From positions 64,001 to 128,000 of the IMG/VR virus record IMGVR_UViG_3300009126_000404: a DNA stretch of 64,000 nt, one strand, 5' to 3'. Shown in pieces: positions 965 through 59,819 of the stretch; within the stretch, counting starts at the first letter, position 1; each line of letters begins with the position of its first letter. Source of the DNA: a virus. The translations under genes and the position numbers were made by a program. The notes below the pieces were generated by a model. It was not told where the DNA came from. It worked only from the letters and a program-made list of their open reading frames with translations, and made no database searches.

Positions 965-986
965 GATAAATACTAATATATTTATG
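965..986. promoter_or_regulatory. Back-to-back T4-late-like promoters (GATAAATA + at 965-972; CATAAATA - at 979-986)
   Basis: NATAAATA octamers on each strand in the intergenic gap between divergent genes; similar to the T4 late consensus TATAAATA. Confidence 0.6.
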
Positions 987-1039: not shown

Positions 1040-2125
1040 ATGACAAAAGCAGTTAACGTATGGAGTGAATTTCAACCACTTAAAAAAATAATACTTGGTG
1101 CACCGTTTCCACCTGAAACATTTGATTGGCATAAAGACGAGGAAACTCGTACTGTTATGCGTCAAATATTCAAAGAAACCGCAGAAGATATTGAAATACT
1201 TGCAAAATTATTAGAAGATAGAGGTATTGAGGTACTGCGTCCTAGTAATATTTTTACAATTACAGGTGAAGAACAAATACAATTACCTTGGATGCATTGT
1301 GGATTTCCTAACCACCCACTAATGCCACGCGATACATTAATGCCTTATGGTAACAGTATATTTGAATTATTTACAGGTAGCGATAATCGTTACTTTGAGA
1401 ATCTGGCTTACTATGATCATTGTTCGCAATGGTTTAAAGAAGGAGCCGATTGGGTTAGTATGCCAGGAGTATTAGTAGAGAGTGGTAAGAAATATGACCA
1501 CTTTGTTGCAAACGATCGAGTACTTTATCACGCGGCAAATATGATAAAGTGCGGACGCCATGTGTTATTCAGCCAGCCGTATGAGGGCGATAGCAAACGT
1601 GGTAGGGGTACGGAACTGGGCCGTGAATGGATCCAACGTGAAATAAAGTTGAGATATCCTAATACCGAATTTTTGGACATTCCAGTAGGAGGACACATCG
1701 ACGGCAAGATAGCTCTACTAAAACCTGGTGTACTAATGACTTGGAATAGAAATTGGGTACCTGATGAAATGAAGCATTGGCACATTATTGAAGTAGCAGA
1801 TGATTTTGATATGCCTGAAGACTTTCAACAAACTCGTAAACGTAGATTCCACAAAGACTATGTAAGCAAATGGTTAAGCCATTGGGTAGGTTGCCCAGAT
1901 GAAAGTGTGTTTGATGTTAACGTATTATCGTTAGATGAAAGCACTGTTATTTGTACAGGCAAAAATGAACAAGCATTTGCAGAAATGGAAGCACATGGAA
2001 TTGAACCAATATACTGGAACTTTAGACATCAGTACTTTTGGGACGGAGGCATACATTGCCTAACAAGCGATATTGTAAGAGAAGGCAATTGCAACGATTA
2101 CATAACTAACAAGAGATATTATTAA
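1040..2125 (+). CDS. Amidinotransferase (glycine/inosamine-phosphate amidinotransferase family)
   Basis: VNVWSEFQPLKKIILG, PRD, GHIDG and C-terminal GGIHCLT (catalytic Cys) motifs. Confidence 0.9.
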   Translation: MTKAVNVWSEFQPLKKIILGAPFPPETFDWHKDEETRTVMRQIFKETAEDIEILAKLLEDRGIEVLRPSNIFTITGEEQIQLPWMHCGFPNHPLMPRDTLMPYGNSIFELFTGSDNRYFENLAYYDHCSQWFKEGADWVSMPGVLVESGKKYDHFVANDRVLYHAANMIKCGRHVLFSQPYEGDSKRGRGTELGREWIQREIKLRYPNTEFLDIPVGGHIDGKIALLKPGVLMTWNRNWVPDEMKHWHIIEVADDFDMPEDFQQTRKRRFHKDYVSKWLSHWVGCPDESVFDVNVLSLDESTVICTGKNEQAFAEMEAHGIEPIYWNFRHQYFWDGGIHCLTSDIVREGNCNDYITNKRYY

Positions 2126-3225
2126 TGAACTGGTATAGACAAATACATAAACTACAAATAGACGTAACTAGTCACTGTAATGCAAGATGTGGTGCATGTA
2201 TAAGAAATATAAGTGGCGGGAAAACAAGACCTGGATTAAAACTATCTCATTTTGATCTTGATGTATGGAAAAGAATGGCAAGAGAAGATACCAAAGGTTG
2301 GTGGGTTAGACAATTAACATTAAATGGAAATTGGGGCGACCCGATGATGCACCCAGATTTAGTAGAAATGCTAGAATTTTGGATAGATCAACATCCAGAA
2401 AGTTTTATTTCAATTGCAACAAATGGAAGTATGCGTGGAACTCAATTTTGGGCAGACCTTGCTAAAGTATTAAGACAAGGTTCTCATCATAAAATTGATT
2501 TTGCTGTAGACGGAATGGAAGATACTCATCATTTATATAGAAGAAGAACCGTGTTTTCTAAATTAACAGAAAATATTAAAAGTTTCACTGACGCAGGTGG
2601 AAACGCAAATGTACAAATGACTATGTTTGAACATAACAAACATCAAATTGAAGAAGTTAAAGAATTATCAAGGCAGTTAGGAGTACGAGAGTTTGTCGCA
2701 AGAAGAAGTCACAGTGCAGAAATGCAAATTATAGATGAGGGTGAAGACTATCATATAAGTGGATATTATCCATCAAATGATAAAAATTATATTGTTGGAA
2801 CCGATAAACCGCAAATGTCAGCACGGTTTGAAGAAAATGACCATCCAGTAAGTGATAATAGAGATAGAATATGGCTAAGGGCAAATGACATATTTGAAGA
2901 ATTAAACGAAAATCATATACCAAGCAAATGTCCATGGAAGGACGAAGGTGAAGTACAAATTGATCCATGGGGTACTGTATGGCCGTGTTGTCATATAAGT
3001 TTATATGGTGGCGATAGGGCATCAGAATCTATGTCTATAGCTAGTGACTTTAGCCAAGAAGCAGAAGATGATAATTTAATTAATAAAGGTCAGAGAGATA
3101 ATAACTTACATGATAATTCGTTAAAAGATATATTAAACGGCTATTGGTTTAATGATATATTAAACAATGCAATAGAAAATGCAGATTGGAAAGTATGTAG
3201 AAAGAATTGTGGGGTGTGTAAATAA
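2125..3225 (+). CDS. Radical SAM protein with C-terminal SPASM/twitch domain
   Basis: CNARCGAC; GNWGDP; C-terminal CPW...IDPWGTVWPCC...CRKNC. Confidence 0.9.
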   Translation: MNWYRQIHKLQIDVTSHCNARCGACIRNISGGKTRPGLKLSHFDLDVWKRMAREDTKGWWVRQLTLNGNWGDPMMHPDLVEMLEFWIDQHPESFISIATNGSMRGTQFWADLAKVLRQGSHHKIDFAVDGMEDTHHLYRRRTVFSKLTENIKSFTDAGGNANVQMTMFEHNKHQIEEVKELSRQLGVREFVARRSHSAEMQIIDEGEDYHISGYYPSNDKNYIVGTDKPQMSARFEENDHPVSDNRDRIWLRANDIFEELNENHIPSKCPWKDEGEVQIDPWGTVWPCCHISLYGGDRASESMSIASDFSQEAEDDNLINKGQRDNNLHDNSLKDILNGYWFNDILNNAIENADWKVCRKNCGVCK

Positions 3226-4475
3226 TGTACGTTAATCCAATGTTAAACGATACTCGCTATCCAACGTGCCTTGCACCTTGGAACGCATTGACTATTAAAT
3301 GGGGTGGTAATGTATTGCCGGACATTATCTATAATGGAAAATTTGGTAACATTACAAAACAAACATTACCTGAAATTTTGAATAGTGACGAAGCAGTAGC
3401 ATTAAGAAAGTCACACGCAGATAGAATAGTACCTAAGGCATGTTTGGCGTGTACTAAAAAAGAACAAAGCGGCAAAAGCCGTAGAATGTATTTTTGGGAT
3501 AAACTAGATGAAGATGTAAAACGTGGTAGTATTAAAAATACCGTAGACAGTAAGCCCGATATACGTTATTTAGACTTTACAATTAGTAATAAATGCAACC
3601 TAGCATGTATACATTGTAACCCATTTGTTAGCACAGGTTGGACCAAAGACGGAAAGAAATTAAACAAAGAAGCACCAGAATACTGGACTCAACAACAAAT
3701 TGGTTATCACGGTGTGGAAGATATGTCATTCCTTGATAACTTATTTGCAGACCCAGAATATTTTCGTAACTTACAGTGGGTAGCACTAAGAGGCGGCGAA
3801 CCTTTATATGATGAAAGTTGTAAAGCAATATTACAATGGTTTATTGATCAAGGACTAGCAAAAAACATTATGTTAGATATTAGTACAAATGCAACAGTAT
3901 TTGATGAAGATTTTCAAAAAATATTTAAACATTTTAAGCACATTGAATTACTTATTAGTATAGAAGCAGTTGACGAATTATATAGTGTAGTACGTGGTGG
4001 ACAATACACATTTGAAGATTTAGAAAGAAACATAGAAAAGTTTTACGAATACCCAAACATTGAAGTTGTGTTTGCCGTGACAGTTATGCTAACAAATGTA
4101 TTTGGGTTAGATAAAGTATGGAATTGGTTTAAAGAAAAACATGTACATAGAGCAAGTATAAGCATGAGCAACGTAGTAGTAAATCCTACATACCTCAATA
4201 TTGCATTCATGCCAGACGTATTAAAGTACATTATGTATGATAAATTACTACAGATTCCAGATCAAAGCATTTGGCCTAAAGGAAGTTATCATGCAGATGA
4301 AATACATTATCAAACAGGCATCCATGCTATTCGTGACGGATTACAAGTTGAAGTAGACGAAGCAGAACAAAAAAAGCAATGGAATTGGTTTGTTAAGTAT
4401 ACTGAAGACTTGGATAGATTACGTGGCACAGACACGTTTGCACTAATAAAGGAATTAAAATTATATAATGAATAA
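3225..4475 (+). CDS. Radical SAM protein with N-terminal twitch-like domain (PCC replaced by PDI)
   Basis: CNLACIHC, GGEP; N-terminal CLAPW...CLAC. Confidence 0.9.
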   Translation: MYVNPMLNDTRYPTCLAPWNALTIKWGGNVLPDIIYNGKFGNITKQTLPEILNSDEAVALRKSHADRIVPKACLACTKKEQSGKSRRMYFWDKLDEDVKRGSIKNTVDSKPDIRYLDFTISNKCNLACIHCNPFVSTGWTKDGKKLNKEAPEYWTQQQIGYHGVEDMSFLDNLFADPEYFRNLQWVALRGGEPLYDESCKAILQWFIDQGLAKNIMLDISTNATVFDEDFQKIFKHFKHIELLISIEAVDELYSVVRGGQYTFEDLERNIEKFYEYPNIEVVFAVTVMLTNVFGLDKVWNWFKEKHVHRASISMSNVVVNPTYLNIAFMPDVLKYIMYDKLLQIPDQSIWPKGSYHADEIHYQTGIHAIRDGLQVEVDEAEQKKQWNWFVKYTEDLDRLRGTDTFALIKELKLYNE

Positions 4476-5373
4476 CCCAGACTTTGGAAAAACAGGAAAC
4501 AGTGTATGGAACCAACCATATTTTGATTATTTAAATGAAACATTCTTTCCTAATATAGATATATCAACACTAGCTGATGAATCTAACATTATGTTGGATA
4601 GATATCAAGGATGGATTGAAAGCAGTAAACTAAACAAGTTTAATGGACTAGATGCATTTCCTTATCGTTTTGCAAGTGTAGGAACTACACAAACATTAGA
4701 TTGGTGGCATTACTATTGCTCAGTAAATAATCTTAACCTTAAAATGTTTAGAGGCGAGTACCCGTATAATAGAGATGTTTATATGCAAAAGAAAATAGAA
4801 TGGTCACATAGTATTGACGACATAGGATTAACACAAGGCGATGCAGTTTTAGTAAGTGTACCATTTAGTGGTACTGGGCGTGTTCCTGAAAGGTGGAACG
4901 ATATAATTAAAATATGTAATCAATTAAAAATTCCAGTACTAGTAGATTGTGCATGGTTTGGAACTTGTTTTGATATTGAAATAAATTTAGATGAACCGTG
5001 TATTAAAATGGTTGTGTTTAGTACTACAAAAGGATTAAGTTGTGGTAACTGGCGTAGTGGTATTGTATTCTCACGTATAAACGAAGGTAGTTTAGAAGTA
5101 CAAACAGATTGGAATCATGGAAATCATTTAGCGACAGCAATTGCTAACAGGCTTATGGAAAAATTTGGACCCGACACTATTCCTAAAAAATATTTAGATT
5201 CACATATTGCTGTATGTGAACATTATGGATTTGAAATGACAAACACAGTACATATTGCACTAGCACCAAAAGGACCTAAGTATGATGAGTTTCATAGAGA
5301 TGGAATATATAACAGAATTAATATTGCAAAAGCATTAAAACGTCACAAAACAAAAGGAAACTTTTATGAATAG
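4468..5373 (+). CDS. Compact PLP-dependent (fold I aminotransferase-like) enzyme
   Basis: VLVDCAW (Asp contacting PLP) and FSTTKGL...RSG (PLP-lysine) motifs. Confidence 0.7.
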   Translation: MNNPDFGKTGNSVWNQPYFDYLNETFFPNIDISTLADESNIMLDRYQGWIESSKLNKFNGLDAFPYRFASVGTTQTLDWWHYYCSVNNLNLKMFRGEYPYNRDVYMQKKIEWSHSIDDIGLTQGDAVLVSVPFSGTGRVPERWNDIIKICNQLKIPVLVDCAWFGTCFDIEINLDEPCIKMVVFSTTKGLSCGNWRSGIVFSRINEGSLEVQTDWNHGNHLATAIANRLMEKFGPDTIPKKYLDSHIAVCEHYGFEMTNTVHIALAPKGPKYDEFHRDGIYNRINIAKALKRHKTKGNFYE

Positions 5374-6505
5374 ACTACCTAGTAATGCCTGTGCTTATCC
5401 ATTTAAAGCAGAGATGCTTATGCATGGACAACCTTCTACACCTTGTTGTAGATTCCATAATAGGTTTCTTACAGATAGAGGGTTTGATGAGATACGTGAA
5501 ACAATGATGCGTAACGAATGGCACCCTGGTTGTTATAAATGTAAGTCAGATGAAGAAATGAAAGGTAGCAGTATGAGAACTGAAGCTGATGAATTCTTTG
5601 ATGACTTTACAGATACAATACGTTTAGAATATTTAGAAATAACAGTAGGTAGGCTTTGTAACTTGGCTTGTTTAAGTTGCGGAAGTGACTTTAGCCACAC
5701 CTGGGATAAAGATGAACTTGCATTAGGTATTAGTGATGAGGCAAAAATAAAGAAGTTAAAGGAAGTACAAGAATACGACTTAGATAATTTAGACTTAGGT
5801 AAATTAGAGCATGTTAAGTTTATTAAAGTAACAGGTGGAGAACCATTTTTGCATAGACAGTTTTTAAACTTAGTCGTTAGATTAGCGGACAGCGGACTAG
5901 CAGGACAGATCGACTTAGAAATATTTACAAACTGTACATGGTATCCAGCAAAACTAGAATTAGATGCATTGTTAAAATTTAAACGTATACAACTAAGTCC
6001 TAGCATTGATGGAGTTGAAAGTACAAACGACCTTCTACGTTACCCTAGTAAATGGAATAAAATTGAGACTACACTTGACAAGTGGATAGAGCTTAAAGAC
6101 GCTACAGGACGCTTAAAAATAGCTACAGCCACCACTATAAGCGTCATTAACGCTCCACAGATGCATGAGTTTATACATTGGGCAAGAGTGCATAAAGGAA
6201 TAGGAGTAATGCTACAAACAGTATATGAACCTCATTATTTAAGTGTTGAGCATTGGAGCAATGAATATAGAAGATTATTAAAACTAACAATAGATCAACA
6301 ATACATGGGTTTTAATAAAAATAGCAATAAGTTTGATGCTAGTTATAAACTATTAAACAATTTGTGTTCTGTTGTAACTAATGCACAGAATGATAAAACA
6401 GAAGAATACATAATAGAGCTAAAAAGAATATTAGCACATCGTGGACAAGATATAAGCATGGCTCCTAAGTTTGCTAATATATTAAAGTATATGAATTATG
6501 ATTAA
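5366..6505 (+). CDS. Twitch-domain radical SAM protein
   Basis: N-terminal CAYPF...PCC...CYKC; CNLACLSC; TGGEP. Confidence 0.9.
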   Translation: MNRLPSNACAYPFKAEMLMHGQPSTPCCRFHNRFLTDRGFDEIRETMMRNEWHPGCYKCKSDEEMKGSSMRTEADEFFDDFTDTIRLEYLEITVGRLCNLACLSCGSDFSHTWDKDELALGISDEAKIKKLKEVQEYDLDNLDLGKLEHVKFIKVTGGEPFLHRQFLNLVVRLADSGLAGQIDLEIFTNCTWYPAKLELDALLKFKRIQLSPSIDGVESTNDLLRYPSKWNKIETTLDKWIELKDATGRLKIATATTISVINAPQMHEFIHWARVHKGIGVMLQTVYEPHYLSVEHWSNEYRRLLKLTIDQQYMGFNKNSNKFDASYKLLNNLCSVVTNAQNDKTEEYIIELKRILAHRGQDISMAPKFANILKYMNYD

Positions 6506-7727
6506 TAAAGAAAAACTAAAACAAAGTAAAACATTTTGTATGTTACCATTTATGCATATCTACGGAACTGCAGGTGGAAACATAGTGCCTTGCTGTGAGG
6601 CGCAGGAGATACCATTGAATAAGAAGAATGAAAGTGCTCTGGATAGTTGGAATAATGAAAACTACCGAGAGCTAAGACGTGCTCTGGCATCGGACGAAAG
6701 ACCAGAACGCTGTAACGTGTGCTGGCACAACGAGGATAGTGGCATTGTGAGCAATCGTCAACAATGGGAAGATGACAATTGGGATGAATTTGCCAATGTC
6801 ATAGAAGTTAATGATGACTATAGTGTTAACAATAGCCCTAAGTGGATTGAACTCAAAGTTAGTAACTTCTGTAACCTAAAGTGCATTATGTGTAGCACAC
6901 ACAGCTCTTACAAACGTGTTAAGGATTTAGATATAATAACAAAGTATCAAGAAGCTGGGCACGAAACTAGATTACTAAGGCCAACAACACTATTTGACAG
7001 TTTAAATGAATGGCCCGAACTATGGGACCATGTTCATACATTACAATTTACAGGTGGTGAGCCTATTATTAATAAAGAGCATTATGACTTATTAGATTCT
7101 ATACCTCAGCAATTAAAGAAAAATATTAAATTACGTTATGCTAGTAATTTAAGTTATATAAAATTTAAACAATATGATTTAGTTAAAATTTGGAATGAAT
7201 TTAAAAGTGTAAATATTAAAGTAAGTATGGACGGTATTAAAGGTGTGTATAACTTTATACGCCAAGATGGTGATTGGGATAATGTATATGCTAATATGCT
7301 GGTCCTTAACGCCGAACCAACAATAGACGTAGCGGCTGGTATTACAATACAAGCACATAATATATTTCACTTACCAGAGTTTTATACATTTTGGAAAAAC
7401 AGTGAAGTTGATTTGAGATTTATTACTGCTAACATTTTGCAAACACCTAGATACTTAGCACCAAGTGTCTGGCCAGCAGAATACAGAGAAGCAATTATTA
7501 ATAAGTTAAAAAGTGCATTAAATGAACATCCAGAAATGCAAAAGTTTATAACGTATATGGAAAACAACCAGCCTAACATACGTGACTATGCAAAGATGAG
7601 AAAATATAATAGAGATTTAGAAGAAAGATACCCAAAGGATATAACATTAAAATCAATGGTAAATGACCATTTGGGTATGCAACCAGAAGATATGAAAGCA
7701 GTACATGAAAGGCTAACAAATGATTAA
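6498..7727 (+). CDS. Twitch-domain radical SAM protein
   Basis: CMLPF...PCC...CNVC; CNLKCIMC; TGGEP. Confidence 0.92.
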   Translation: MINKEKLKQSKTFCMLPFMHIYGTAGGNIVPCCEAQEIPLNKKNESALDSWNNENYRELRRALASDERPERCNVCWHNEDSGIVSNRQQWEDDNWDEFANVIEVNDDYSVNNSPKWIELKVSNFCNLKCIMCSTHSSYKRVKDLDIITKYQEAGHETRLLRPTTLFDSLNEWPELWDHVHTLQFTGGEPIINKEHYDLLDSIPQQLKKNIKLRYASNLSYIKFKQYDLVKIWNEFKSVNIKVSMDGIKGVYNFIRQDGDWDNVYANMLVLNAEPTIDVAAGITIQAHNIFHLPEFYTFWKNSEVDLRFITANILQTPRYLAPSVWPAEYREAIINKLKSALNEHPEMQKFITYMENNQPNIRDYAKMRKYNRDLEERYPKDITLKSMVNDHLGMQPEDMKAVHERLTND

Positions 7728-14813: not shown

Positions 14814-15376
14814 AAAGCATAATATGTACAGGAAATCCAGAATTTGGCGTAGCAAGTGCAATAGCTGAACGTTGGCCAGAAACAGAATTTGTTAGTAGAA
14901 CTAATTGGGATTACGATTTAACACAAGATAGTTATAAAAAGAAACTAGCAGAAAAGGCTCTTAATTATGACGTCTTTATTAACGGATCTGCACTATGGCA
15001 GTACCATCAAACTTTGCTACTAGATGTAGTCTATAAAACCGCCCAAACCAATCGCAAAAGACTACATATAGTATGTTTAGGTAGTACAACAGACAGAGCT
15101 ACTAAAGGCTCTGATTGGCATTATCAGCAAGAAAAGAAGGCTTTACGTAGTACAAGCAATGCATTAGGCTTAAAAAGCATATGGGCTGGTGGTCCTAAGG
15201 TTAGTTATATTACATTTGGTACATTAGAAAACAATGCACACAAACACCCTGGTCGAAAAGTAATGAAATTAAACGATGCTGTAGATATGATTGAATATGT
15301 AATTAATATGCCATATCATTTAAATGTAAATGAACTTAGCATTGACCCTATACAAACGGAGTGGCCAAATGAATAA
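14810..15376 (+). CDS. Short-chain dehydrogenase/reductase-like protein (short)
   Basis: N-terminal TG...G nucleotide-binding loop; YQQEK (YxxxK); C-terminal PYHLNVNELSI. Confidence 0.7.
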   Translation: MKSIICTGNPEFGVASAIAERWPETEFVSRTNWDYDLTQDSYKKKLAEKALNYDVFINGSALWQYHQTLLLDVVYKTAQTNRKRLHIVCLGSTTDRATKGSDWHYQQEKKALRSTSNALGLKSIWAGGPKVSYITFGTLENNAHKHPGRKVMKLNDAVDMIEYVINMPYHLNVNELSIDPIQTEWPNE

Positions 15377-16196
15377 AATAGGAATATTTGGTGATAGTTT
15401 TGCTGTACCTGATGTAAGGGCGAAATGGGATGGAAATATTGTTAAGATTTCTAATGTTAATTGGATGGAATTAATAGGAGCACAAACATATGCCTATGGC
15501 GGTACTGATGTAGCATATAGTTTTTTAGAATTTGAAAAGCATCATAGTAAATATGATCAAGTTATTTTTGTATTAACTAATCCAGGCAGCAGAATAACTC
15601 TCAAACATCGCGACTTTATACTAAATTCATGTGATCAAGAGTATAGCATTAGAGCCATAGAAAGATTAAAGAAATCAGATGACTATGATCCTATACTTAA
15701 TCATATACATTTATCTTTAATTGAATGGCACAAAATGCAAACACTTGACGCTTTTGCAGAAAGAGAAACTTTATTTTGTAATTTAATGGTAGCACGAATA
15801 AAACAATTAAGACCAGATGTTAAATTTATACAAGCATTTGCTTGGAATAATATTGAACACATTGGCGACAATAAATATATTCCTTCTACTAGTTGTTTAG
15901 TTGACATTACCCATTACGAAAATAAAATATTTAATTGGGAACATCCTACATCAGAAAATAGTGGATGGTATTGCTCTGATAAAAAAGGGGATATTAGAAT
16001 TGGGCATATAACATGTGAGTCACATGTAATTTTAGCAGAACTAATTAAAAAATGGCTAAAAACTGATAAAATGTTTTTTGACTTTGATATAAAAGAATTT
16101 CATAATATTAAACCTGACGAGAAGCTATACAATACGGCTTTTCATAAAAGTTATGAAGACTGGTTAGCATATTGTAAGGAGCATAAAAATGAGTAA
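15369..16196 (+). CDS. SGNH/GDSL hydrolase-like protein
   Basis: N-terminal IFGDSFA; C-terminal GHIT..SH. Confidence 0.6.
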   Translation: MNKIGIFGDSFAVPDVRAKWDGNIVKISNVNWMELIGAQTYAYGGTDVAYSFLEFEKHHSKYDQVIFVLTNPGSRITLKHRDFILNSCDQEYSIRAIERLKKSDDYDPILNHIHLSLIEWHKMQTLDAFAERETLFCNLMVARIKQLRPDVKFIQAFAWNNIEHIGDNKYIPSTSCLVDITHYENKIFNWEHPTSENSGWYCSDKKGDIRIGHITCESHVILAELIKKWLKTDKMFFDFDIKEFHNIKPDEKLYNTAFHKSYEDWLAYCKEHKNE

Positions 16197-17343
16197 ATTT
16201 TGTTATATGCCTTGGAATGCAATCACGTTAACCGCTAATGGTGATATTAAACCATGTTGCCAATTTAGTAATAAAGGACGTATGCCTAATACTGAGCATA
16301 ATACAATAATGGAAAATTTTAATAGTGAACGTATGCAAGGATTACGCAAAGATTTCCTACAAGGTATAGAAAACAATGCATGTAATAGTTGTTGGGAGAG
16401 AGAAGATTTAGTAGGCCAAAGTAGACGCTTATGGTTTAACAAAAAGTTTCTCAATAATGAACCTAAGCCAACTACACATGATGTACCAAACCCTACATTC
16501 TATCAAGCAGATATTAACTTGTCAAATGTATGTAATTTAAAATGTCGTATGTGTGGAAGTTGGGCAAGTAACAGTTGGTTTGAAGAAGAATTAGCGTTAG
16601 CCAAAATAGACAAGCGTTATGAAAAGAATACACGTCCTGTTCCATTACAACAATATGAATTAGAAGATTTACGTAATATGCTACCTCATTTAAAGAAAGT
16701 AAAACGTATAGACTTTAAGGGTGGCGAACCAATGATGGCAAAACATCATAATCAATTTTTGGAATGGCTAATTGAAGAAGATATGACTGACGTAGAATTA
16801 TTCTACACTACAAATGGTACAGTACAAAATCCTAAGATTTTAAAATTATTAAGCAACTTTAAACGTGTCAGCATATGTTTCAGTATAGAAGGCACAGGTG
16901 ATTTATATAGTTATATAAGAGGTGGAAAATATACTATAGAAGATTTTGAAAACACACTAGCAGTATATGATAAATTAGAAAACGTACAAATAATGTTTAA
17001 TGTAACATTGCAAAATTATAACGTTTTCAACTTACCAGACTTGCATTTTTTCTTACATGATTTGGAAGATAAATATGATAGAGTAAGTGCAAATAACAGT
17101 TTCACTACTATCTGTAACAAACCAGCATATTTAAGTCCAATGAATTTACCCGATGATTTAAGAGATAAAGCAATTGGAAGATTATCTTTGTTTAGTGATT
17201 TTGAAAAGTTAGTTGAAAGTATGAAACAAAGAACATTTAATCCAGAGCTATGGGAAGTGTTTATTAACTTTACAAATGATTTGGATAAAATGCGAGGAGA
17301 TAGTGTAGTGAAAGCAGTACCACAACTAAAGGAACATTTTTAA
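16189..17343 (+). CDS. Twitch-domain radical SAM protein
   Basis: CYMPW...PCC...CNSC; CNLKCRMC; GGEP. Confidence 0.92.
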   Translation: MSKFCYMPWNAITLTANGDIKPCCQFSNKGRMPNTEHNTIMENFNSERMQGLRKDFLQGIENNACNSCWEREDLVGQSRRLWFNKKFLNNEPKPTTHDVPNPTFYQADINLSNVCNLKCRMCGSWASNSWFEEELALAKIDKRYEKNTRPVPLQQYELEDLRNMLPHLKKVKRIDFKGGEPMMAKHHNQFLEWLIEEDMTDVELFYTTNGTVQNPKILKLLSNFKRVSICFSIEGTGDLYSYIRGGKYTIEDFENTLAVYDKLENVQIMFNVTLQNYNVFNLPDLHFFLHDLEDKYDRVSANNSFTTICNKPAYLSPMNLPDDLRDKAIGRLSLFSDFEKLVESMKQRTFNPELWEVFINFTNDLDKMRGDSVVKAVPQLKEHF

Positions 17344-18059
17344 TGTTAGTAGGTATAGAAGATAATTTTGCACCCAAAGACGAACTACTTCGTGTAGAAT
17401 GGAACTTGGGTAAACGTTGTAACTATAACTGTAGTTATTGTGGTAATGAATTACACAATAAAACCAGCGACCATATGAGTTGGGAAGTATACACAGGCAC
17501 AATAGATAAAATTGTGGAAGCATCTAATGGTAAGAAAATTAAAATAAGTTTTACTGGTGGTGAACCTTTTGTACATCCTAAGTTTATTGATATGCTAAAG
17601 TACGCTAAAGAAAATGGAGTGTATCGTTGCAGTGTAACTACTAATGGAAGTCCGCCTCCTAAAATATATAAGAAAGCATTAAAATATTTACATTATGTTA
17701 TAATCAGCTATCATTTCGAATTTGCATCTCACGATAAAGTTATTAATAATATTACAGGTATGTGGGAAGAAATACAAGAATACAGAGCCAAAGATCAATA
17801 CAAAGGTATGCACGTACACATTATGGCATTACCTGGGCACATGAAAGAATGGAAAGAAATTATAAACGAATTAAAAGAATGTGGAGTAGAATATACAGTT
17901 AGAAAAATTAGGCCACGTGTTAATGAAGACCGCACAGGATGGAATAAACCATATGCTGACGGTATGCTAGGGCAACATCCCAAGCATGAAGAAACTGAAA
18001 AGTTTGCTGGACAATATTATAGTGCAGAAGAAGAAAAATGGTTAAACGAAAATGTCTGA
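17343..18059 (+). CDS. Radical SAM core domain lacking its C-terminal SPASM domain
   Basis: WNLGKRCNYNCSYC, TGGEP; resembles the N-terminal part of 20852..22021. Confidence 0.88.
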   Translation: MLVGIEDNFAPKDELLRVEWNLGKRCNYNCSYCGNELHNKTSDHMSWEVYTGTIDKIVEASNGKKIKISFTGGEPFVHPKFIDMLKYAKENGVYRCSVTTNGSPPPKIYKKALKYLHYVIISYHFEFASHDKVINNITGMWEEIQEYRAKDQYKGMHVHIMALPGHMKEWKEIINELKECGVEYTVRKIRPRVNEDRTGWNKPYADGMLGQHPKHEETEKFAGQYYSAEEEKWLNENV

Positions 18060-19242
18060 AGATAAAGTAAGAGAGTGGTTAATGAAACCCGGTAATAATT
18101 TTTGTGCGTTGCCATTTACACATATGGCAATAGAAGCCAATGGCGATATAAGACCTTGTTGTATGGGCGATGAATTTGATTTAAACATTAGAAATAAAAC
18201 AATACAACAAGTATACAACGACCCAATAAGACTACAATTTGTAGACAGTTTTAAACGCAACGAACAACATCCTGCATGTCATCAATGTTGGAAAGATCCA
18301 GAAATAAGAACTACTTTTTCAACATCATCTGTTGCTATGGAAGTAACAAAACAAGCAATGAATGGAATAACACCTAAGCATGAATTAAAATGGTTAGAAA
18401 TTAAACCAGGAAATAGATGTAACTTAAAATGTAGAATATGTGGAGTACATAATAGTAGTACCTGGGCAAAAGATACTGCGGCAATGGAAGAGCCCAAAGT
18501 AAAGTTTAAAAACAGCGAGTCATTTAAATATACACAATCGTGTGATTGGATCGATGATCCAAAATTTTGGAATGATGTAAATCAATTAGAATCATTAGAG
18601 TACTTACATTTTATGGGTGGCGAGCCGTTTATGGTTCCTGAGCATTTTCAATTAATAGAACGTTTAGTAAACGATCCTGACATTGATACTAGTAATATTA
18701 TAATAGGATACAATACAAACGGAACATATTTTCCTAGCAAAGAAAACTTTGAACTATACAAGAATTTTAAGCAAGTAAAATTTGCAATAAGCATAGATGA
18801 TATTAATGAGAGATTTAACTATCAGCGTAAATTAGCTGAGTGGGAAGAAGTAAAAAATAATATTAAGAATTTTCAAAAATTAGATAAAAGCCAATATCTT
18901 GCACATTTGGATCCTACTATAAGTATATTTAATATATTTTATTTAAATGAGATTTGTACAGAATTTAATAATTTAGGATATTATGGTTTTACTAACCAAC
19001 GACATTTTGTAAATAGTGGTCCTGATTGTATTCATACGCTACCTCAATATATAAAAGACATTATTACAGAAAAGTATAAAGACAGTGATAACATATGGAT
19101 TAAACGAGCCGTAAACTATATGAATAGTCAAAAATCAGATTATAGCTTATGGGAGGATTTTAAAATAAAGACTAATAAATTAGATTTATTAAGAAAAGAA
19201 AACTTCCAACATACATTTAAGGAATTTTATGAGCAATTTTAA
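18052..19242 (+). CDS. Twitch-domain radical SAM protein
   Basis: CALPF...PCC...CHQC; CNLKCRIC; GGEP. Confidence 0.92.
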   Translation: MSEDKVREWLMKPGNNFCALPFTHMAIEANGDIRPCCMGDEFDLNIRNKTIQQVYNDPIRLQFVDSFKRNEQHPACHQCWKDPEIRTTFSTSSVAMEVTKQAMNGITPKHELKWLEIKPGNRCNLKCRICGVHNSSTWAKDTAAMEEPKVKFKNSESFKYTQSCDWIDDPKFWNDVNQLESLEYLHFMGGEPFMVPEHFQLIERLVNDPDIDTSNIIIGYNTNGTYFPSKENFELYKNFKQVKFAISIDDINERFNYQRKLAEWEEVKNNIKNFQKLDKSQYLAHLDPTISIFNIFYLNEICTEFNNLGYYGFTNQRHFVNSGPDCIHTLPQYIKDIITEKYKDSDNIWIKRAVNYMNSQKSDYSLWEDFKIKTNKLDLLRKENFQHTFKEFYEQF

Positions 19243-19558
19243 AAATATTATTGTACACTATAAAGATGGTACAAGCAAAGAAGATAACGTAAACAGTGTC
19301 ATGGCACGTGATGAAAATGACTTCCGTGGTTGGGAATGTTGGGCAGGTGTACAAAATATTACTATCAGTAATACAGGTGATGTGTTTAGAGCTATATGTA
19401 AAGTAGGAGGCAAACTAGGAAACATTTATGATGGATTCGAAATGCCAAAAGAAACTATTATATGTAATAAGCCTAGATGCATATGTGCGGCAGATGTGCA
19501 ACTATCAAAAGCATTGCCAGATCATGTACATAGATTAAGAGTAGGTAAAGATGGATAA
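19229..19558 (+). CDS. Free-standing SPASM-like Fe-S domain
   Basis: FRGWECWAG...C...GNIY...C...CICAAD matches the C-terminus of 20852..22021 (FKGWECSSG...C...GNIE...C...CVSSAD). Confidence 0.75.
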   Translation: MSNFKNIIVHYKDGTSKEDNVNSVMARDENDFRGWECWAGVQNITISNTGDVFRAICKVGGKLGNIYDGFEMPKETIICNKPRCICAADVQLSKALPDHVHRLRVGKDG

Positions 19559-20855
19559 TTATAAACAATTTTATGATCACGCAGTAGGTAAGTTAAAAGG
19601 TTTACCAGTAGATAAAAATACATTTTGTCCATTACCGTTTGTTCATGTAAGCACTACACCACATGGTGAAGTAAAACTATGCTGTAGATCTCGCCCACCA
19701 AAAGGAGGAAAAAATGTGAATAATCCTAATGTCAAAGATGATAACTTTGATCTTAAAGATTATTGGCATAGTGAGTATATGAATGAAATACGAGATGATC
19801 TTATATTAGGAAATAAACCACAACAATGTCAGAATTGTTGGAAGATGGAAGATATGGATATTGTTAGTCTACGATTAAACAAGCTCACTGATTTAATGGG
19901 CAATAAAACTTATATAAAAAATATAAAACATTACTTAAAGCATAGAGAAGTTGAATTTAAAATTCCTCTTATTGAACTTAAATTAAGTAATGTATGTAAT
20001 TTTAAATGTCGTATGTGCTGGCCAAAAGATAGTTCAAAATGGATGCAAGATTGGGATAAATTAAAAAAATTCTACGATAAAAAAGATCAAACCTTTATTG
20101 AAACAATTATAGATGCAAACGACTTAAGAACAACTAGAGTAATGAATTTATATGAAAAAGATGAACAATTTGTTGGACACTTAGTTGAGCTCATGGAACA
20201 TATTGAAGAACTTGAATTTGCTGGTGGCGAACCTCTAATGGATCCAATCCATTATCGTATATTAGATAGCATACCTCATCCTGAAAATGTAACTTTAAAA
20301 TATAGTACAAATCTAAGCATTATGAAAATGGGTAAACATAGTATAATAGACTTATGGAAGAAATTTAAAAGTATTAAACTCACTATTAGCATAGACGGAT
20401 ATAAGGAACTTAATACTAAAATAAGAAGAGGTTCTGATTGGGACCTGTTAAAAAAGAACATTAAACTTGTAAAAGAGAATTTAGACAATTTAGACGTTAT
20501 TAAAGGAACCACGTGTATAAGTGGAATGAATGCACAAGAATTAGGTAAAACAGCAGAAGCAATTGAGTTTGAATTAGGCATATTATGGCATACAAGCCGT
20601 ATGCAAAGCCCGGATTTCCTACATGCAAATGTTCTGAGCCCTATACAGCTGAAAGAAGGAATAGACGGCTTAAAACGGGTATTTGATAGCTTAAACACGG
20701 CGAAAAACCGCCAATCTGCTGGACGCTTTATGTTAGAAGCTCACTTAAATGGAGCTATTAGTTGGCTACAATCATGCATAGATAATAACAAACATACAGA
20801 GAAATATGAGCAATTTTTAAAGTTTAATAACACGATAGAGGATATGGATAAATGA
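19551..20855 (+). CDS. Twitch-domain radical SAM protein
   Basis: CPLPF...CC...CQNC; CNFKCRMC; AGGEP. Confidence 0.92.
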   Translation: MDNYKQFYDHAVGKLKGLPVDKNTFCPLPFVHVSTTPHGEVKLCCRSRPPKGGKNVNNPNVKDDNFDLKDYWHSEYMNEIRDDLILGNKPQQCQNCWKMEDMDIVSLRLNKLTDLMGNKTYIKNIKHYLKHREVEFKIPLIELKLSNVCNFKCRMCWPKDSSKWMQDWDKLKKFYDKKDQTFIETIIDANDLRTTRVMNLYEKDEQFVGHLVELMEHIEELEFAGGEPLMDPIHYRILDSIPHPENVTLKYSTNLSIMKMGKHSIIDLWKKFKSIKLTISIDGYKELNTKIRRGSDWDLLKKNIKLVKENLDNLDVIKGTTCISGMNAQELGKTAEAIEFELGILWHTSRMQSPDFLHANVLSPIQLKEGIDGLKRVFDSLNTAKNRQSAGRFMLEAHLNGAISWLQSCIDNNKHTEKYEQFLKFNNTIEDMDK

Positions 20856-22021
20856 CAGATAAAGACTTAAAATGGAGTGAATACGATTTTACCGCTACAC
20901 CGTATGATGATATTGTACGAGTAGGGCAACGTACAATGCTGTACCGTGATTTATTTACAGTTAGTTGGTTGTTAGGTAGATTCTGTAATTATAAATGTTC
21001 TTATTGTTGGCCTTATGCTAGAAGTGATAGGAAAGACCATAGACCAACTAAACTTAATTTAAAAACTATTGATGAAATAAAAAGACAAGCACGTGAACGT
21101 GGTTTTAATAGTTTTCATTTTAGTTTAAGTGGAGGTGAGCCAACGTTCCATCCAGGTTATCTTGATATGCTTAAACATCTAAGCGATGATGTACACAATA
21201 CAAATTATACAAGTGTGCATATGACTTCAAACTGTAGCCGTAACATGAAATGGTTCCAAACATATGTAGAATATGCGGCTAAGTTTCACCGTGCAAGTAT
21301 TACAGCAAGTTTACATACAGAGCATGTTAATACACCTAAAAAAATGCAAGACTTTGCAGACAAGTTAATATTTTGCCAAGAACATGACGTGCAGGTTACA
21401 ATTAATCAAGTTATGGTTCCAAATTGGTTTGATAGAGATTGGGAAAATGCATTGTTCTTTCATAATCAAGGAATCAATGTAACACTTAAACCTCAATCAG
21501 ATCCTACTGCAAGTAAAATTGTAGATGGGTATACTGATGAGATGTTAAAAAGATTACATAACGGAATGCCACAACGTGGATACACAGAAGTTAAAGCAAA
21601 ACAAACACAATTAGTAAAACGTCCTAAGCCAGAATTTGAAATTGACTATGATGATGAATATAGAAAACAAAGTGCTAATGTTCCTTGGCATATGCAAATA
21701 GAATTTAGAGATAGCAAAGGTAAACCTTGGTATATGGACCAAGCAGAACGATTCAATGCTTTTAATTTTAATAACTTTAAAGGTTGGGAATGTAGTTCTG
21801 GTTATCGTAGTATAATTATTAGAGAACCCGATGGAAGTGTAAAACGTTCATACAGTTGTATGGATCAACCTTTAGGGAATATTGAAACAGGATTTAAATT
21901 GTTTGATGGCCCTACTAAATGTATAACTGGTGCTTGTGTTTCAAGTGCTGATAGTAAAATACCAAAAAGAGCACCTGGAACTAAAATGGGATTGTGGCCG
22001 GGAGATAAATCATTTGGATAA
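20852..22021 (+). CDS. Radical SAM protein with C-terminal SPASM-like domain
   Basis: WLLGRFCNYKCSYC; SGGEP; C-terminal Cys cluster. Confidence 0.9.
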   Translation: MTDKDLKWSEYDFTATPYDDIVRVGQRTMLYRDLFTVSWLLGRFCNYKCSYCWPYARSDRKDHRPTKLNLKTIDEIKRQARERGFNSFHFSLSGGEPTFHPGYLDMLKHLSDDVHNTNYTSVHMTSNCSRNMKWFQTYVEYAAKFHRASITASLHTEHVNTPKKMQDFADKLIFCQEHDVQVTINQVMVPNWFDRDWENALFFHNQGINVTLKPQSDPTASKIVDGYTDEMLKRLHNGMPQRGYTEVKAKQTQLVKRPKPEFEIDYDDEYRKQSANVPWHMQIEFRDSKGKPWYMDQAERFNAFNFNNFKGWECSSGYRSIIIREPDGSVKRSYSCMDQPLGNIETGFKLFDGPTKCITGACVSSADSKIPKRAPGTKMGLWPGDKSFG

Positions 22022-55219: not shown

Positions 55220-55222
55220 ATT

Positions 55223-59818: not shown

Positions 59819-59819
59819 T

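What the first reader, a model, noticed from the sequence alone, without database searches (positions are those of the whole stretch)
1040..22021. Phage-borne ~21-kb biosynthetic operon with 12 tandem radical-SAM enzymes plus tailoring enzymes
Seen: 12 ORFs with intact CxxxCxxC and GGEP-type motifs, all co-oriented and almost all joined by overlapping stop/start codons. They are interleaved with an amidinotransferase, a PLP enzyme, ABM, a 2OG-Fe(II) hydroxylase, an SDR and an SGNH-like protein, behind one late-type promoter. Established: rSAM-SPASM/twitch enzymes typically modify peptides/proteins or mature cofactors, and phage DNA hypermodification pathways use rSAM, PLP and acyl-transfer enzymes. 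Inference: a virus-encoded multi-step modification pathway whose substrate (virion proteins, a RiPP-like peptide, glycan or DNA base) is unknown. This is the best candidate here for an undescribed system.
Basis: partly seen in the sequence, partly recalled or inferred. Interest (0 to 1): 0.9.

Follow-up and report, generated by a model that had tools for sequence, protein, structure and literature searches.

The report
Phage radical-SAM sugar-tailoring operon
A large marine T4-like phage spends 21 kb on 21 tightly packed soluble enzymes, twelve of them radical-SAM enzymes; the same uncharacterised enzyme set occurs in predatory Bdellovibrio-like bacteria beside sugar-transferring enzymes, so it most likely builds and attaches an unusual sugar whose identity and target nobody knows.

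Summary
Window 1040-22021 (+) carries 21 overlapping, co-oriented genes; 12 have CxxxCxxC. All genes with orthologues of at least 60% identity are under purifying selection (dN/dS 0.05-0.38). The order is kept in 13 IMG/VR contigs.

Nine of the twelve belong to NCBIfam NF033640 (N_Twi_rSAM), where the auxiliary Fe-S (twitch) domain lies N-terminal to the radical-SAM core. No paper on this family was found. The 184-kb record holds 18 such genes and 25 radical-SAM matches.

The other genes:
- an amidinotransferase (StrB1/AGAT type)
- a short PLP enzyme
- an SDR-like protein
- a 2OG/Fe(II) hydroxylase (PF05118)
- two paralogues whose confident model shows a GT-A-like domain plus a class-I methyltransferase domain; relatives are repeatedly fused to that hydroxylase

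Homologues occur in Bdellovibrionota chromosomes, up to 12 N_Twi copies per genome. In one cultured isolate they are interleaved with five or six glycosyltransferases.

Best reading (about 0.5): a cytoplasmic pathway that builds, radically tailors and attaches an amino/guanidino sugar. The acceptor is unknown, possibly a virion protein. RiPP, free-metabolite and DNA-modification readings remain open.

This scan found the same system four times on other DNA. Campylobacter phage CP220 (2010) and a marine viral genome (2017) are published precedents for many radical-SAM genes in phages.

The parts
966..972 (+). ATAAATA, a T4-late-type promoter-like heptamer, 68 nt upstream of g01
   Evidence: Sequence read. 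Genome-wide, 31 of 72 copies lie in the 4.9% of the record that is intergenic. Function not shown.
1040..2125 (+). g01, L-arginine:X amidinotransferase (AGAT/StrB1/HsvA/SxtG family), 361 aa
   Evidence: Profile A5 against PDB: 1bwd StrB1 6.5e-35, HsvA 1.5e-34, SxtG 5.5e-31, AGAT 4e-29. Homologues of 39-46% identity lie in Bdellovibrionota clusters L042 and L029.
2125..3225 (+). g02, radical SAM enzyme with a conventional C-terminal SPASM domain, 366 aa
   Evidence: PF04055 5.6e-10 at residues 14-180; SPASM at 269-362. CNARCGAC at residue 18 and a second CxxxCxxC at 358.
3225..4475 (+). g03, N_Twi radical SAM enzyme, 416 aa; its N-terminal domain has only 3 Cys
   Evidence: NF033640 253 bits against a 170 cut-off. 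Cys15/73/76 and CNLACIHC at 124. 94% identical orthologue in L004, dN/dS 0.06.
4468..5373 (+). g04, short fold-type-I PLP enzyme (aminotransferase-like), 301 aa
   Evidence: PF00155 2.7e-5, 24 bits against a 19.7 cut-off. D160, K188 and R196 invariant in 12 sequences. Bdellovibrionota homologues up to 43% identical.
5366..6505 (+). g05, N_Twi radical SAM enzyme, 379 aa
   Evidence: NF033640 210 bits; CNLACLSC at 98 and GGEP at 157.
6498..7727 (+). g06, N_Twi radical SAM enzyme, 409 aa
   Evidence: NF033640 314 bits; C14, C32/33, C72, C75, then CNLKCIMC at 125.
7720..8001 (+). g07, small ABM/DUF3291-like protein, 93 aa; variable, seen only in L004 among relatives
   Evidence: PF11695 1.7e-4 and PF03992 4.7e-3, both below cut-off; synteny.
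7988..9274 (+). g08, paralogue of g09 (GT-A-like plus methyltransferase-like), 428 aa
   Evidence: BLASTP g08 against g09 gives 1e-17. Its own AF2 model was poor, pLDDT 54 from a shallow alignment. Conserved in all 13 viral loci.
9274..10677 (+). g09, two-domain protein: GT-A-like fold (about residues 10-258) and class-I SAM-methyltransferase fold (about 259-467), 467 aa
   Evidence: AF2 pLDDT 93, pTM 0.90. VIA-align: majastridin Z 9.4, hyaluronan synthase 9.2 and Mimivirus R699 8.8 for the N-terminal half; 6ulo Z 12.3, INMT 9.9 and PNMT 9.1 for the C-terminal half. The family has 864 representative clusters. Six of 10 long members carry PF05118 and one carries a radical SAM domain.
10668..11438 (+). 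g10, 2OG/Fe(II) oxygenase of the Asp/Arg-hydroxylase family, 256 aa
   Evidence: PF05118 5.8e-13, 49 bits. H171, D173, H219 and R229 invariant. Fused to a g08/g09-type domain in Bdellovibrionota (808-aa protein in L042).
11407..12468 (+). g11, N_Twi radical SAM enzyme, 353 aa
   Evidence: NF033640 194 bits; CNLTCVMC at 100.
12437..13678 (+). g12, N_Twi radical SAM enzyme, 413 aa; the best family match in the operon
   Evidence: NF033640 385 bits. 1313 database homologues, with orthologues of 59-86% identity on contigs up to 249 kb. No PDB sequence match.
13647..14813 (+). g13, N_Twi radical SAM enzyme, 388 aa; variable, present in L001 and L008 only
   Evidence: NF033640 219 bits; synteny.
14810..15376 (+). 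g14, short SDR-like oxidoreductase, 188 aa
   Evidence: Motifs read in the translation: ICTGNPEFGVAS, GST, YQQEK. No Pfam hit. 70-90% identical in 11 viral loci; 27-42% in Bdellovibrionota.
15330..16196 (+). g15, SGNH/GDSL-like protein, 288 aa; variable
   Evidence: GDSF motif near the N-terminus. No Pfam hit. Only 31-35% identical counterparts in L001, L003 and L012.
16189..17343 (+). g16, N_Twi radical SAM enzyme, 384 aa
   Evidence: NF033640 300 bits.
17343..18059 (+). g17, radical SAM core only (238 aa); N-terminal half of a split enzyme
   Evidence: PF04055 2.5e-17. Homologous to residues 1 to about 240 of 338-408-aa Bdellovibrionota enzymes.
18052..19242 (+). g18, N_Twi radical SAM enzyme, 396 aa, lying between the two halves g17 and g19
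   Evidence: NF033640 265 bits.
19229..19558 (+). g19, free-standing twitch/SPASM-like Cys domain (109 aa); C-terminal half of the split enzyme
   Evidence: 49% identical to residues 256-339 of the 353-aa enzyme L025:18025-19086, whose N-terminal part matches g17. 80-94% conserved in 7 viral loci; dN/dS 0.065.
19551..20855 (+). g20, N_Twi radical SAM enzyme, 434 aa
   Evidence: NF033640 298 bits.
20852..22021 (+). g21, radical SAM enzyme of another type (core at the N-terminus, Cys-bearing C-terminal part), 389 aa
   Evidence: PF04055 6.4e-14. 57-66% identical orthologues in more than 25 Bdellovibrionota loci, next to the o59640-type N_Twi gene. No hit in cultured phages.

Best explanation
The operon encodes a cytoplasmic pathway that makes, radically tailors and transfers an unusual amino/guanidino sugar or short glycan. 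Proposed flow; only the fold and family assignments are shown, the steps and their order are inferred. The N-terminal-twitch radical-SAM paralogues each abstract a specific C-H hydrogen of a sugar. The sugar could be a nucleotide-sugar or already attached. The outcomes could be oxidation to a ketone, epimerisation, deoxygenation or C-C chemistry, as the twitch enzyme BtrN does on an aminocyclitol. The SDR-like g14 and the PLP enzyme g04 interconvert hydroxyl, keto and amino groups. The amidinotransferase g01 turns a primary amine into a guanidine using arginine. The 2OG hydroxylase g10 makes a hydroxyl on the acceptor. The GT-A/methyltransferase proteins g08 and g09 attach and methylate the sugar. 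All 21 proteins are soluble and the operon sits behind a late-type motif. The acceptor is therefore most likely a macromolecule made in the infected cell, with a virion protein as first guess. The phage backs the pathway with an Fe-S carrier and a Pfs-like nucleosidase that would clear 5'-deoxyadenosine; a first-stage note, not checked here, also lists a SAM synthetase.
For: 1. g01 is a true small-molecule amidinotransferase: StrB1, HsvA, SxtG and AGAT at 1e-29 to 1e-35.
2. g04 keeps the fold-type-I PLP residues, and g14 has SDR motifs.
3. The g09 model (pLDDT 93) has a GT-A-like domain and a class-I methyltransferase domain. At least 20 of the top 50 structural matches are glycosyltransferases of several families.
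4. The g08/g09 family is fused to PF05118 hydroxylases in 6 of 10 long relatives, in both orders, and in Bdellovibrionota. This is the layout of hydroxylase-glycosyltransferase enzymes such as LH3.
5. In the isolate Bdellovibrio sp. HCB2-146 the orthologous core is interleaved, with overlapping reading frames, with five PF00535 GT2 genes and one Glyco_transf_7C gene. The core there is g21 at 59% identity, the o59640 N_Twi gene at 58% and the o18339 radical SAM gene at 43%.
6. Analogous modules exist in cultured phages. CP220 has five or six radical SAM genes, an amidinotransferase and two nucleotide-diphospho-sugar transferases. S-SCSM2R has its amidinotransferase beside KdsA/KdsB.
7. No Pfam RRE/PqqD hit and no conserved small ORF was found in the operon.
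8. No transmembrane segment was found in any product.
9. Support genes: a Pfs-like nucleosidase lies between N_Twi genes and an A-type Fe-S carrier at window 32625-32936.
Against: - No nucleotide-sugar-forming enzyme (nucleotidyltransferase or 4,6-dehydratase) was identified inside the operon.
- No canonical GT2 (PF00535) exists in the 184-kb record.
- The GT-A assignment is at fold level only, Z 8-9.4, close to the range where matches can reflect a common arrangement. The DxD position is not conserved: it reads WAEG in g09 and WFDG in g08. hhalign against Bdellovibrio GT2s was not significant.
- No N_Twi enzyme has ever been characterised, so their substrate class is pure inference.
- PF05118 enzymes usually act on protein Asp/Asn or on lipid A, which fits a protein acceptor but would also fit a purely peptide pathway.
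- The acceptor was not found: the record has no collagen-like repeats and lacks the structural module.
Confidence: 0.5

Rival explanations
1. Protein or peptide modification done directly by the radical-SAM enzymes. This would be RiPP-like maturation, or cross-linking, epimerisation or C-methylation of virion proteins. The hydroxylase would act on Asp/Asn, and the remaining enzymes would decorate side chains.
For: Secondary NCBIfam hits of the paralogues include peptide maturases (PapB, YhhB, SkfB, CefB, WgkB) at 1e-5 to 1e-8. PF05118 enzymes classically hydroxylate protein or peptide Asp/Asn (established knowledge). The late-type motif fits action on virion proteins.
Against: No RRE/PqqD domain was reported in any of the 22 products. 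The N-terminus of the nine main enzymes is taken up by the twitch domain. No conserved precursor-sized ORF exists: genes overlap throughout, and the small ORFs g07 and g22 are poorly conserved. Amidinotransferases of this family are known only on small amines (established knowledge). The Bdellovibrio context is rich in glycosyltransferases.
Confidence: 0.15
2. A free small molecule: an aminocyclitol or aminoglycoside-like or other guanidino metabolite, made in the infected cell and by predatory bacteria to act on the host, the prey or competitors.
For: The combination of StrB1-type amidinotransferase, aminotransferase-like enzyme, SDR and twitch radical SAM recalls streptidine and 2-deoxystreptamine logic, with BtrN as a twitch dehydrogenase (established knowledge). 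Both a phage and a predator would gain from a host-directed compound. The authors of the S-SCSM2R paper read its amidinotransferase and radical SAM genes as 'antibiotic synthesis genes' (PMC12801897).
Against: No inositol-phosphate or 2-deoxy-scyllo-inosose synthase, kinase, exporter or resistance gene was seen in the operon. The hydroxylase-GT-A fusions suggest a macromolecular acceptor. Eighteen deeply diverged paralogues are many for one metabolite.
Confidence: 0.15
3. Nucleic-acid hypermodification: the enzymes build or decorate a modified base or nucleotide in phage DNA or in tRNA.
For: The same record is reported by a first-stage note (e1-5812820) to hold a 7-deazaguanine system with sugar-transfer genes; this was not re-tested here. 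Weak secondary hits of several paralogues are to nucleotide-using enzymes (MoaA, viperin, QueE, BlsE) at 1e-5 to 1e-10. PP-loop ATPase-like genes lie in one Bdellovibrionota cluster. CP220-type phages have fully modified DNA (own knowledge, not checked here).
Against: Homologous clusters sit in ordinary Bdellovibrionota chromosomes beside GT2 genes. In CP220 and CPt10 the radical SAM/amidinotransferase module differs completely between two phages that are at least 96% identical (PMC2853527); this fits a variable surface-type trait better than a genome-wide DNA chemistry. No DNA glycosylase, TGT or polymerase-linked gene lies in the operon.
Confidence: 0.1
4. Modification or breakdown of host or prey envelope polysaccharide, for superinfection exclusion, receptor masking or nutrient release, rather than decoration of a phage product.
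For: An alginate-lyase-family gene lies 9 kb upstream (PF05426, 5e-9). Both carriers, phage and predator, deal with another cell's envelope. GT2-rich context in Bdellovibrio.
Against: None of the 21 products has a signal peptide-like or transmembrane segment, and no flippase or polymerase gene was seen. Radical-SAM enzymes need a reducing cytoplasm (established knowledge).
Confidence: 0.07

Closest known systems
NCBIfam NF033640, N_Twi_rSAM ('twitch domain-containing radical SAM protein')
   Same: Nine operon genes, and 18 in the whole record, score 194-413 bits against a 170-bit cut-off over the full model. They carry the N-terminal C-x17-CC-x~38-CxxC domain followed by CxxxCxxC and GGEP.
   Different: The family is only a sequence model. 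My literature searches found no characterised member, structure or paper. g03 lacks the CC pair. Here the family is expanded to 18 deeply diverged copies of 23-29% identity.
Bdellovibrionota radical-SAM islands (for example Bdellovibrio sp. HCB2-146 and the complete-chromosome MAGs OZ242254 and CBDCLX010000002)
   Same: Orthologues are shared at these identities: g21 57-66%, the upstream N_Twi gene o59640 55-63%, the radical SAM/SPASM gene o18339 about 43%, g01 39-46%, g04 up to 43%; g08, g10 and g14 also have homologues. There are up to 12 N_Twi copies per genome. 26 of 121 sampled genomes carry the family, against 0 of 14 control genomes.
   Different: The cellular islands carry canonical GT2 glycosyltransferases, PP-loop ATPase-like genes and hydroxylase-GT-A fusions. 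Most N_Twi paralogues are not one-to-one orthologues of the phage ones (tree distances about 3-4 against 0.06-0.37 between phages). The islands have no published function either.
Radical SAM/amidinotransferase module of Campylobacter phages CP220 and CPt10 (Timms et al. 2010, PMC2853527)
   Same: A T4-like phage with 11-12 radical SAM genes. It has an operon of five or six radical SAM genes, an amidinotransferase (24% identical to g01) and two nucleotide-diphospho-sugar-transferase-domain genes. Its function is unknown.
   Different: The CP220 enzymes are of the conventional type with C-terminal Cys-rich domains, 25-29% identical to g02 and its kin, and are not N_Twi. No PF05118 hydroxylase is annotated there.
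BtrN / anSME-type twitch and SPASM radical-SAM dehydrogenases
   Same: A radical SAM core plus an auxiliary [4Fe-4S] domain bound by Cys motifs. BtrN oxidises a secondary alcohol of an aminocyclitol, the kind of chemistry proposed here (established knowledge). anSME is the best PDB sequence hit of g21, but only at E 0.015.
   Different: The domain order is permuted in the nine N_Twi enzymes. There is no significant sequence match to any solved structure. The activity is not tested.
Lysyl hydroxylase/glycosyltransferase LH3 and Mimivirus R699/L230-type collagen-modifying enzymes
   Same: A 2OG oxygenase is combined with GT-A domains in one protein or module. R699 and LH3 appear among the structural matches of g09: Foldseek E about 2e-3 to 6e-3, and VIA Z 8.8 for R699.
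   Different: The hydroxylase here belongs to the Asp/Arg-hydroxylase family, not the lysyl hydroxylases. g09 adds a methyltransferase domain. The matches are weak, and no collagen-like substrate is present in the record.

Membership tests
Radical SAM superfamily (PF04055) | HMM match above the gathering score | tested here: met
   All 12 genes score 30.3-64 bits against the 29.5 cut-off; g05 is marginal at 30.3.
Radical SAM superfamily (PF04055) | CxxxCxxC cluster motif and a GGEP-type SAM-binding motif | tested here: met
   CxxxCxxC is present in all 12. GGEP is present in 11; g02 lacks it.
NF033640 N_Twi_rSAM | Full-length HMM score of at least 170 bits | tested here: met
   g03 253, g05 210, g06 314, g11 194, g12 385, g13 219, g16 300, g18 265, g20 298 bits. 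g02, g17 and g21 score 40-56 bits and are not members.
NF033640 N_Twi_rSAM | Cys-rich twitch-like domain N-terminal to the radical SAM core | tested here: met
   Pfam SPASM matches at residues about 5-97, ahead of PF04055 at about 100-290. The C, CC and CxxC pattern is present in 8 of 9 genes; g03 has 3 Cys.
Conventional SPASM/twitch peptide maturases (RiPP type) | N-terminal RRE/PqqD-like leader-binding domain and an adjacent precursor peptide gene | tested here: not met
   No PF05402-type hit was reported for any of the 22 products at E up to 0.01. No conserved small ORF was found.
Amidinotransferase (AGAT/StrB1 family) | Full-length homology to solved family members | tested here: met
   The profile of g01 plus two homologues hits StrB1 at 6.5e-35, HsvA at 1.5e-34, SxtG at 5.5e-31 over residues 4-356, and AGAT at 4e-29.
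Amidinotransferase (AGAT/StrB1 family) | Catalytic Cys-His-Asp residues | tested here: inconclusive
   H219, D221 and H339-C340 are invariant in the 3-sequence alignment. They were not mapped residue by residue onto AGAT.
Fold-type I PLP aminotransferases (PF00155) | HMM match and the PLP-binding Asp, Lys and Arg | tested here: inconclusive
   24 bits against a 19.7 cut-off, but only residues 125-202 align. D160, K188 and R196 are invariant in 12 sequences. PDB profile hits are only E 0.16. At 301 aa the protein is short for the family.
Asp/Arg beta-hydroxylase family of 2OG/Fe(II) oxygenases (PF05118) | HMM match above cut-off and the HxD...H iron triad | tested here: met
   49.4 bits against a 22.6 cut-off. 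H171, D173, H219 and R229 are invariant in 8 orthologues.
GT-A glycosyltransferases | GT-A fold | tested here: inconclusive
   Residues 10-258 of g09 align to many GT-A enzymes at Z 7.7-9.4 and Foldseek E about 2e-3. The fold is shared consistently, but the scores are only moderately above the background level the tool states.
GT-A glycosyltransferases | DxD metal and nucleotide-sugar binding motif | tested here: inconclusive
   At the position that hhalign places opposite the GT2 DxD, g09 reads WAEG and g08 reads WFDG. A conserved HDD follows in the g09 lineage only. hhalign probability is below 2%.
Class I SAM-dependent methyltransferases | Rossmann-like methyltransferase fold with a Gly-rich motif I and an acidic residue after strand 2 | tested here: met
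   Residues 259-467 of g09 give Z 12.3 (6ulo), 9.9 (INMT) and 9.1 (PNMT), with Foldseek probability 0.94-0.99 for NNMT. G291 is nearly invariant and D312 is invariant in 115 sequences. Activity is not tested.
Short-chain dehydrogenase/reductase (SDR) | TGxxxGxG, catalytic Ser and YxxxK | tested here: inconclusive
   The motifs can be read in g14. There is no Pfam hit, and only a 0.0013 partial NCBIfam hit.

The most novel reading that the evidence does not exclude
The N-terminal-twitch radical-SAM enzymes are a new functional class that edits sugars, or glycans already attached to a protein, by radical chemistry. Phages of this group would use 9-18 of them, with a hydroxylase-glycosyltransferase-methyltransferase module and an amidinotransferase, to coat their virions or another macromolecule with a hypermodified guanidino-glycan. 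Such a glycan would be of a kind not seen in any virus or cell. The toolkit is shared with, and exchanged with, predatory Bdellovibrionota.
Probability: 0.25. Interest if true: 0.9.

Novelty: new variant of a known kind. Interest (0 to 1): 0.72.

Why it matters
If the reading is right, this is the largest concentration of radical-SAM enzymes known in a virus: 25 matches in 184 kb, 18 of one uncharacterised family. It would define the function of NF033640, a family with no studied member. It would also add radical C-H chemistry to the ways viruses build their own glycans, which so far are known mainly from giant eukaryotic viruses. The link to predatory bacteria suggests a shared solution to a shared problem: living at the expense of another bacterium. 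The orthologues are abundant in ocean metagenomes, at 59-86% identity on contigs up to 249 kb, so the product may be common in the sea. Cultured entry points exist: Vibrio phage K566, Campylobacter phage CP220 and Bdellovibrio sp. HCB2-146.

Tried and rejected
- Megablast of the whole operon against cultured phages: no match.
- g12 against PDB sequences: no match.
- The g10 profile and the o15295 profile against PDB: no match. The o15986 profile gave only chance hits, although its motifs look like a class-I methyltransferase.
- First AF2 model of g08 from 7 sequences: pLDDT 54, unusable. It was replaced by g09 with 115 sequences.
- hhalign of the o15295 family and of the g08/g09 family against four Bdellovibrio GT2 proteins: probability below 2%. 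The GT2-like 'G..A...hhhhD.D' stretch lines up for o15295, which is suggestive only. The Atlas feature search for o15295 gave GT2 only as a weak lead, score 0.86.
- Complex prediction for g09 with g10 returned 'no answer'. It is not used as evidence either way.
- The search for related loci with the 9-paralogue alignment failed because the paralogues are too diverged.
- Relatives cannot be drawn for a virus record.
- Collagen-like repeats as a possible acceptor: none in the record.
- Single-copy N_Twi genes in Bacteroidota lie beside PolA-like and other housekeeping-looking genes and gave no functional hint.
- Identity with the published TARA_ERS488813_N000010 (183 kb, 12 radical SAM genes): not established. 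The record has an A-type carrier gene as described there, but no PaaD-type match and no gp23.
- Literature searches for N-terminal twitch/SPASM, NF033640 and Bdellovibrio radical SAM clusters found nothing relevant.

Full report
**What is there.** The window is bases 64001-128000 of a 183,842-bp IMG/VR virus record that CheckV rates 51% complete. A T4-type DNA polymerase lies at window 47453-50146 (phrog_262, 1.5e-196). Its nearest cultured relatives are giant myophages such as Atu_ph07 and the Rak2-like phages, at 44-48% identity. No gp23 match was found, so the structural module lies outside the record.

From 1040 to 22021 the + strand carries 21 genes, and every junction overlaps. The only intergenic space, 944-1039, holds ATAAATA at 966-972. 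In the whole record, 31 of 72 copies of this heptamer fall in the 4.9% of DNA that is intergenic. It is therefore a real regulatory word of T4-late type, but its use here is not shown.

**The twelve radical-SAM genes.** All twelve have CxxxCxxC and pass PF04055. Nine pass NCBIfam NF033640 (N_Twi_rSAM) at 194-385 bits against a cut-off of 170: g03, g05, g06, g11, g12, g13, g16, g18 and g20. In these the Cys-rich auxiliary domain (C-x17-CC-x~38-CxxC) comes before the radical-SAM core, the reverse of BtrN, anSME or RiPP maturases. The remaining three are different:
- g02 is a conventional radical SAM enzyme with a C-terminal SPASM domain.
- g21 is a further type.
- g17 is a bare core.

The nine paralogues are only 23-29% identical to each other. 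Each has a close orthologue in related phages, at tree distance 0.06-0.37 against about 3-4 to any paralogue. Against orthologues in L004 or L001, dN/dS is 0.05-0.38 for every operon gene compared, which is all except g01 and g15. The copies are old, individually maintained and functional. The whole record has 25 PF04055 matches and 18 N_Twi genes. None of 14 control genomes has one.

**Conservation.** Thirteen IMG/VR contigs keep the order g03-g04-g05-g06-g08-(g09)-g10-g11-g12-g14-...-g21. The variable members are g07, g13, g15, g18 and g22. g12 has 1313 database homologues. Orthologues at 59-86% identity come from marine sources including Tara, on contigs up to 249 kb.

**The other enzymes.**
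- g01 is a genuine amidinotransferase: StrB1 6.5e-35, with HsvA, SxtG and AGAT close behind.
- g04 is a short fold-type-I PLP protein that keeps Asp160, Lys188 and Arg196.
- g10 is a PF05118 2OG oxygenase with an intact HxD...H triad.
- g14 has SDR motifs, and g15 has a GDSF motif.
- g08 and g09, which Pfam leaves blank, are paralogues (1e-17) of a family with 864 representative clusters.

A 115-sequence alignment gave a confident model of g09, with pLDDT 93. Residues 10-258 take a GT-A-like fold; the best matches are majastridin at Z 9.4, hyaluronan synthase at 9.2 and Mimivirus R699 at 8.8, followed by many other glycosyltransferases. Residues 259-467 take a class-I methyltransferase fold, at Z 12.3, 9.9 and 9.1, with an invariant acidic D312.

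Six of ten long family members are fused to a PF05118 hydroxylase, in either order, and one is fused to a radical SAM domain. A Bdellovibrionota 808-aa protein shows the same fusion. So g08, g09 and g10 form a hydroxylase-transferase-methyltransferase module. None of the 21 products has a transmembrane-like segment.

**The cellular counterpart.** The upstream N_Twi gene of the record (G000 59640-61061) has 55-63% identical orthologues in dozens of Bdellovibrionota genomes. These include two complete chromosomes and the isolate Bdellovibrio sp. HCB2-146. Beside them lie orthologues or homologues of the following genes:
- g21, at 57-66% identity
- the radical SAM/SPASM gene o18339, at about 43%
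- two small genes found at 15.3-16.9 kb of the phage record
- in some genomes g01 (39-46%), g04 (up to 43%), g08, g10 and g14, together with many more N_Twi genes

Three checked genomes hold 7, 9 and 12 N_Twi copies. In a sample of 121 Bdellovibrionota genomes, 26 carry the family, often in tight arrays. In the isolate the core genes are interleaved with five PF00535 GT2 genes and one Glyco_transf_7C gene, with overlapping frames. This is the strongest contextual pointer to glycan chemistry.

**Precedents in cultured phages.**
- Campylobacter phage CP220 has an operon of five or six radical SAM genes, an amidinotransferase (24% identical to g01) and two nucleotide-diphospho-sugar-transferase-domain genes. 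Its radical-SAM enzymes are of the g02 type, not N_Twi.
- Timms et al. counted 11-12 radical SAM genes in CP220 and CPt10. They noted that this module is swapped between two otherwise near-identical phages (PMC2853527).
- Synechococcus phage S-SCSM2R places its amidinotransferase beside KdsA/KdsB and 2OG oxygenases (PMC12801897).
- Vibrio phage K566 has four clustered N_Twi-like genes.
- Nishimura et al. noted a 183-kb marine T4-like genome with 12 radical SAM genes and an Fe-S carrier (PMC5332604). Whether that is this genome could not be settled.

**Interpretation.** The accessory enzymes are of small-molecule and sugar type. The module g08-g09-g10 looks made to hydroxylate an acceptor and to attach and methylate a sugar. 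The cellular homologues sit among glycosyltransferases. I found neither the domains nor the precursor genes of RiPP systems.

I therefore favour, at about 0.5, a cytoplasmic pathway that builds, radically tailors and transfers an amino/guanidino sugar. The nine to eighteen N_Twi enzymes would each perform one C-H activation step. The acceptor is unknown. Solubility of all products and the late-type motif point to something made inside the infected cell, and a virion protein is my first guess.

The weak points are these:
- No sugar-activating enzyme lies in the operon.
- No canonical GT2 lies in the record.
- The GT-A call is at fold level only, without a conserved DxD.
- No N_Twi enzyme has ever been assayed.

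Direct peptide or protein modification, a free guanidino metabolite, and nucleic-acid modification remain open. The CP220/CPt10 module swap argues against a DNA-wide chemistry.

**Support functions and a curiosity.**
- A Pfs-like nucleosidase lies between N_Twi genes just upstream of the window.
- An A-type Fe-S carrier lies at window 32625-32936.
- g17 (core only) and g19 (Cys domain only) are the two halves of one Bdellovibrionota-type enzyme. g19 is 49% identical to residues 256-339 of a 353-aa homologue whose front matches g17. The N_Twi gene g18 sits between the two halves, and the layout is kept in eight related loci.

**Standing.** The scan reached the same reading four times on other DNA. 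Those notes are not independent evidence. Every point used here was re-derived here.

Noticed in passing
window 17343-19558: g17 (radical SAM core only) and g19 (twitch/SPASM-like domain only) are the two halves of a single enzyme, as found in Bdellovibrionota. They are split by the inserted N_Twi gene g18. The layout is conserved in eight related phage loci, and both halves are under strong purifying selection (dN/dS 0.045 and 0.065).
   Followed up: partly
window 32553-32939 (-): A-type Fe-S cluster carrier (PF01521, 1.8e-11) encoded by the phage. It is a likely helper for the 25 Fe-S enzymes.
   Followed up: no
L017:7296-7871 (G000 62296-62871, just before the window): A Pfs-like PNP_UDP_1 nucleosidase (8e-15) lies between N_Twi radical SAM genes. 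It would clear 5'-deoxyadenosine. Three further N_Twi genes lie at G000 59640-64126, the last ending at window base 126.
   Followed up: partly
L017:116-1147 (G000 55116-56147): Alginate-lyase-family protein (PF05426, 5e-9), 9 kb upstream of the operon.
   Followed up: no
whole record; window 966-972: The heptamer ATAAATA is about nine-fold enriched in intergenic DNA, with 31 of 72 copies in 4.9% of the sequence. It usually lies 6-40 nt before a gene start: a T4-late-like promoter word of this phage.
   Followed up: partly
L014:12405-14648 (G000): A 747-aa protein with a signal-like N-terminus, about ten 'ALYDSGCxGYAxAY' Cys repeats and long acidic EEI/PEP repeats. It is preceded by TctA- and TctC-like transporter genes at 9198-11807 and a Ser/Thr-rich 181-aa secreted-looking protein.
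   Followed up: no
window 113-943 (-): A 276-aa ORF divergent from the operon, with no family match. It has its own reverse-strand TATTTAT 36 nt upstream, so the 96-bp gap looks like a divergent promoter region.
   Followed up: no
window 24466-24906 (-) and 28158-29126 (-): A MotA/ExbB-family protein (PF01618, 1e-6) and a ribose-phosphate pyrophosphokinase (phrog_619, 3e-46), both downstream of the operon on the other strand.
   Followed up: no
L021 (JAUHVL010000001.1, 349.5 kb) and L043 (Dojkabacteria MAG contig, 38 kb): These contigs are filed as bacterial MAGs. They carry several homologues of other genes of this phage around the N_Twi gene, so they may be phage contigs binned by mistake.
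   Followed up: no
L074, L075, L068, L077-L085: Bacteroidota have a single, shorter N_Twi gene (357-371 aa) in a housekeeping-looking context. In two genera it lies directly after a PolA-like gene and a 316-aa gene. This is probably a different function from the expanded arrays.
   Followed up: no
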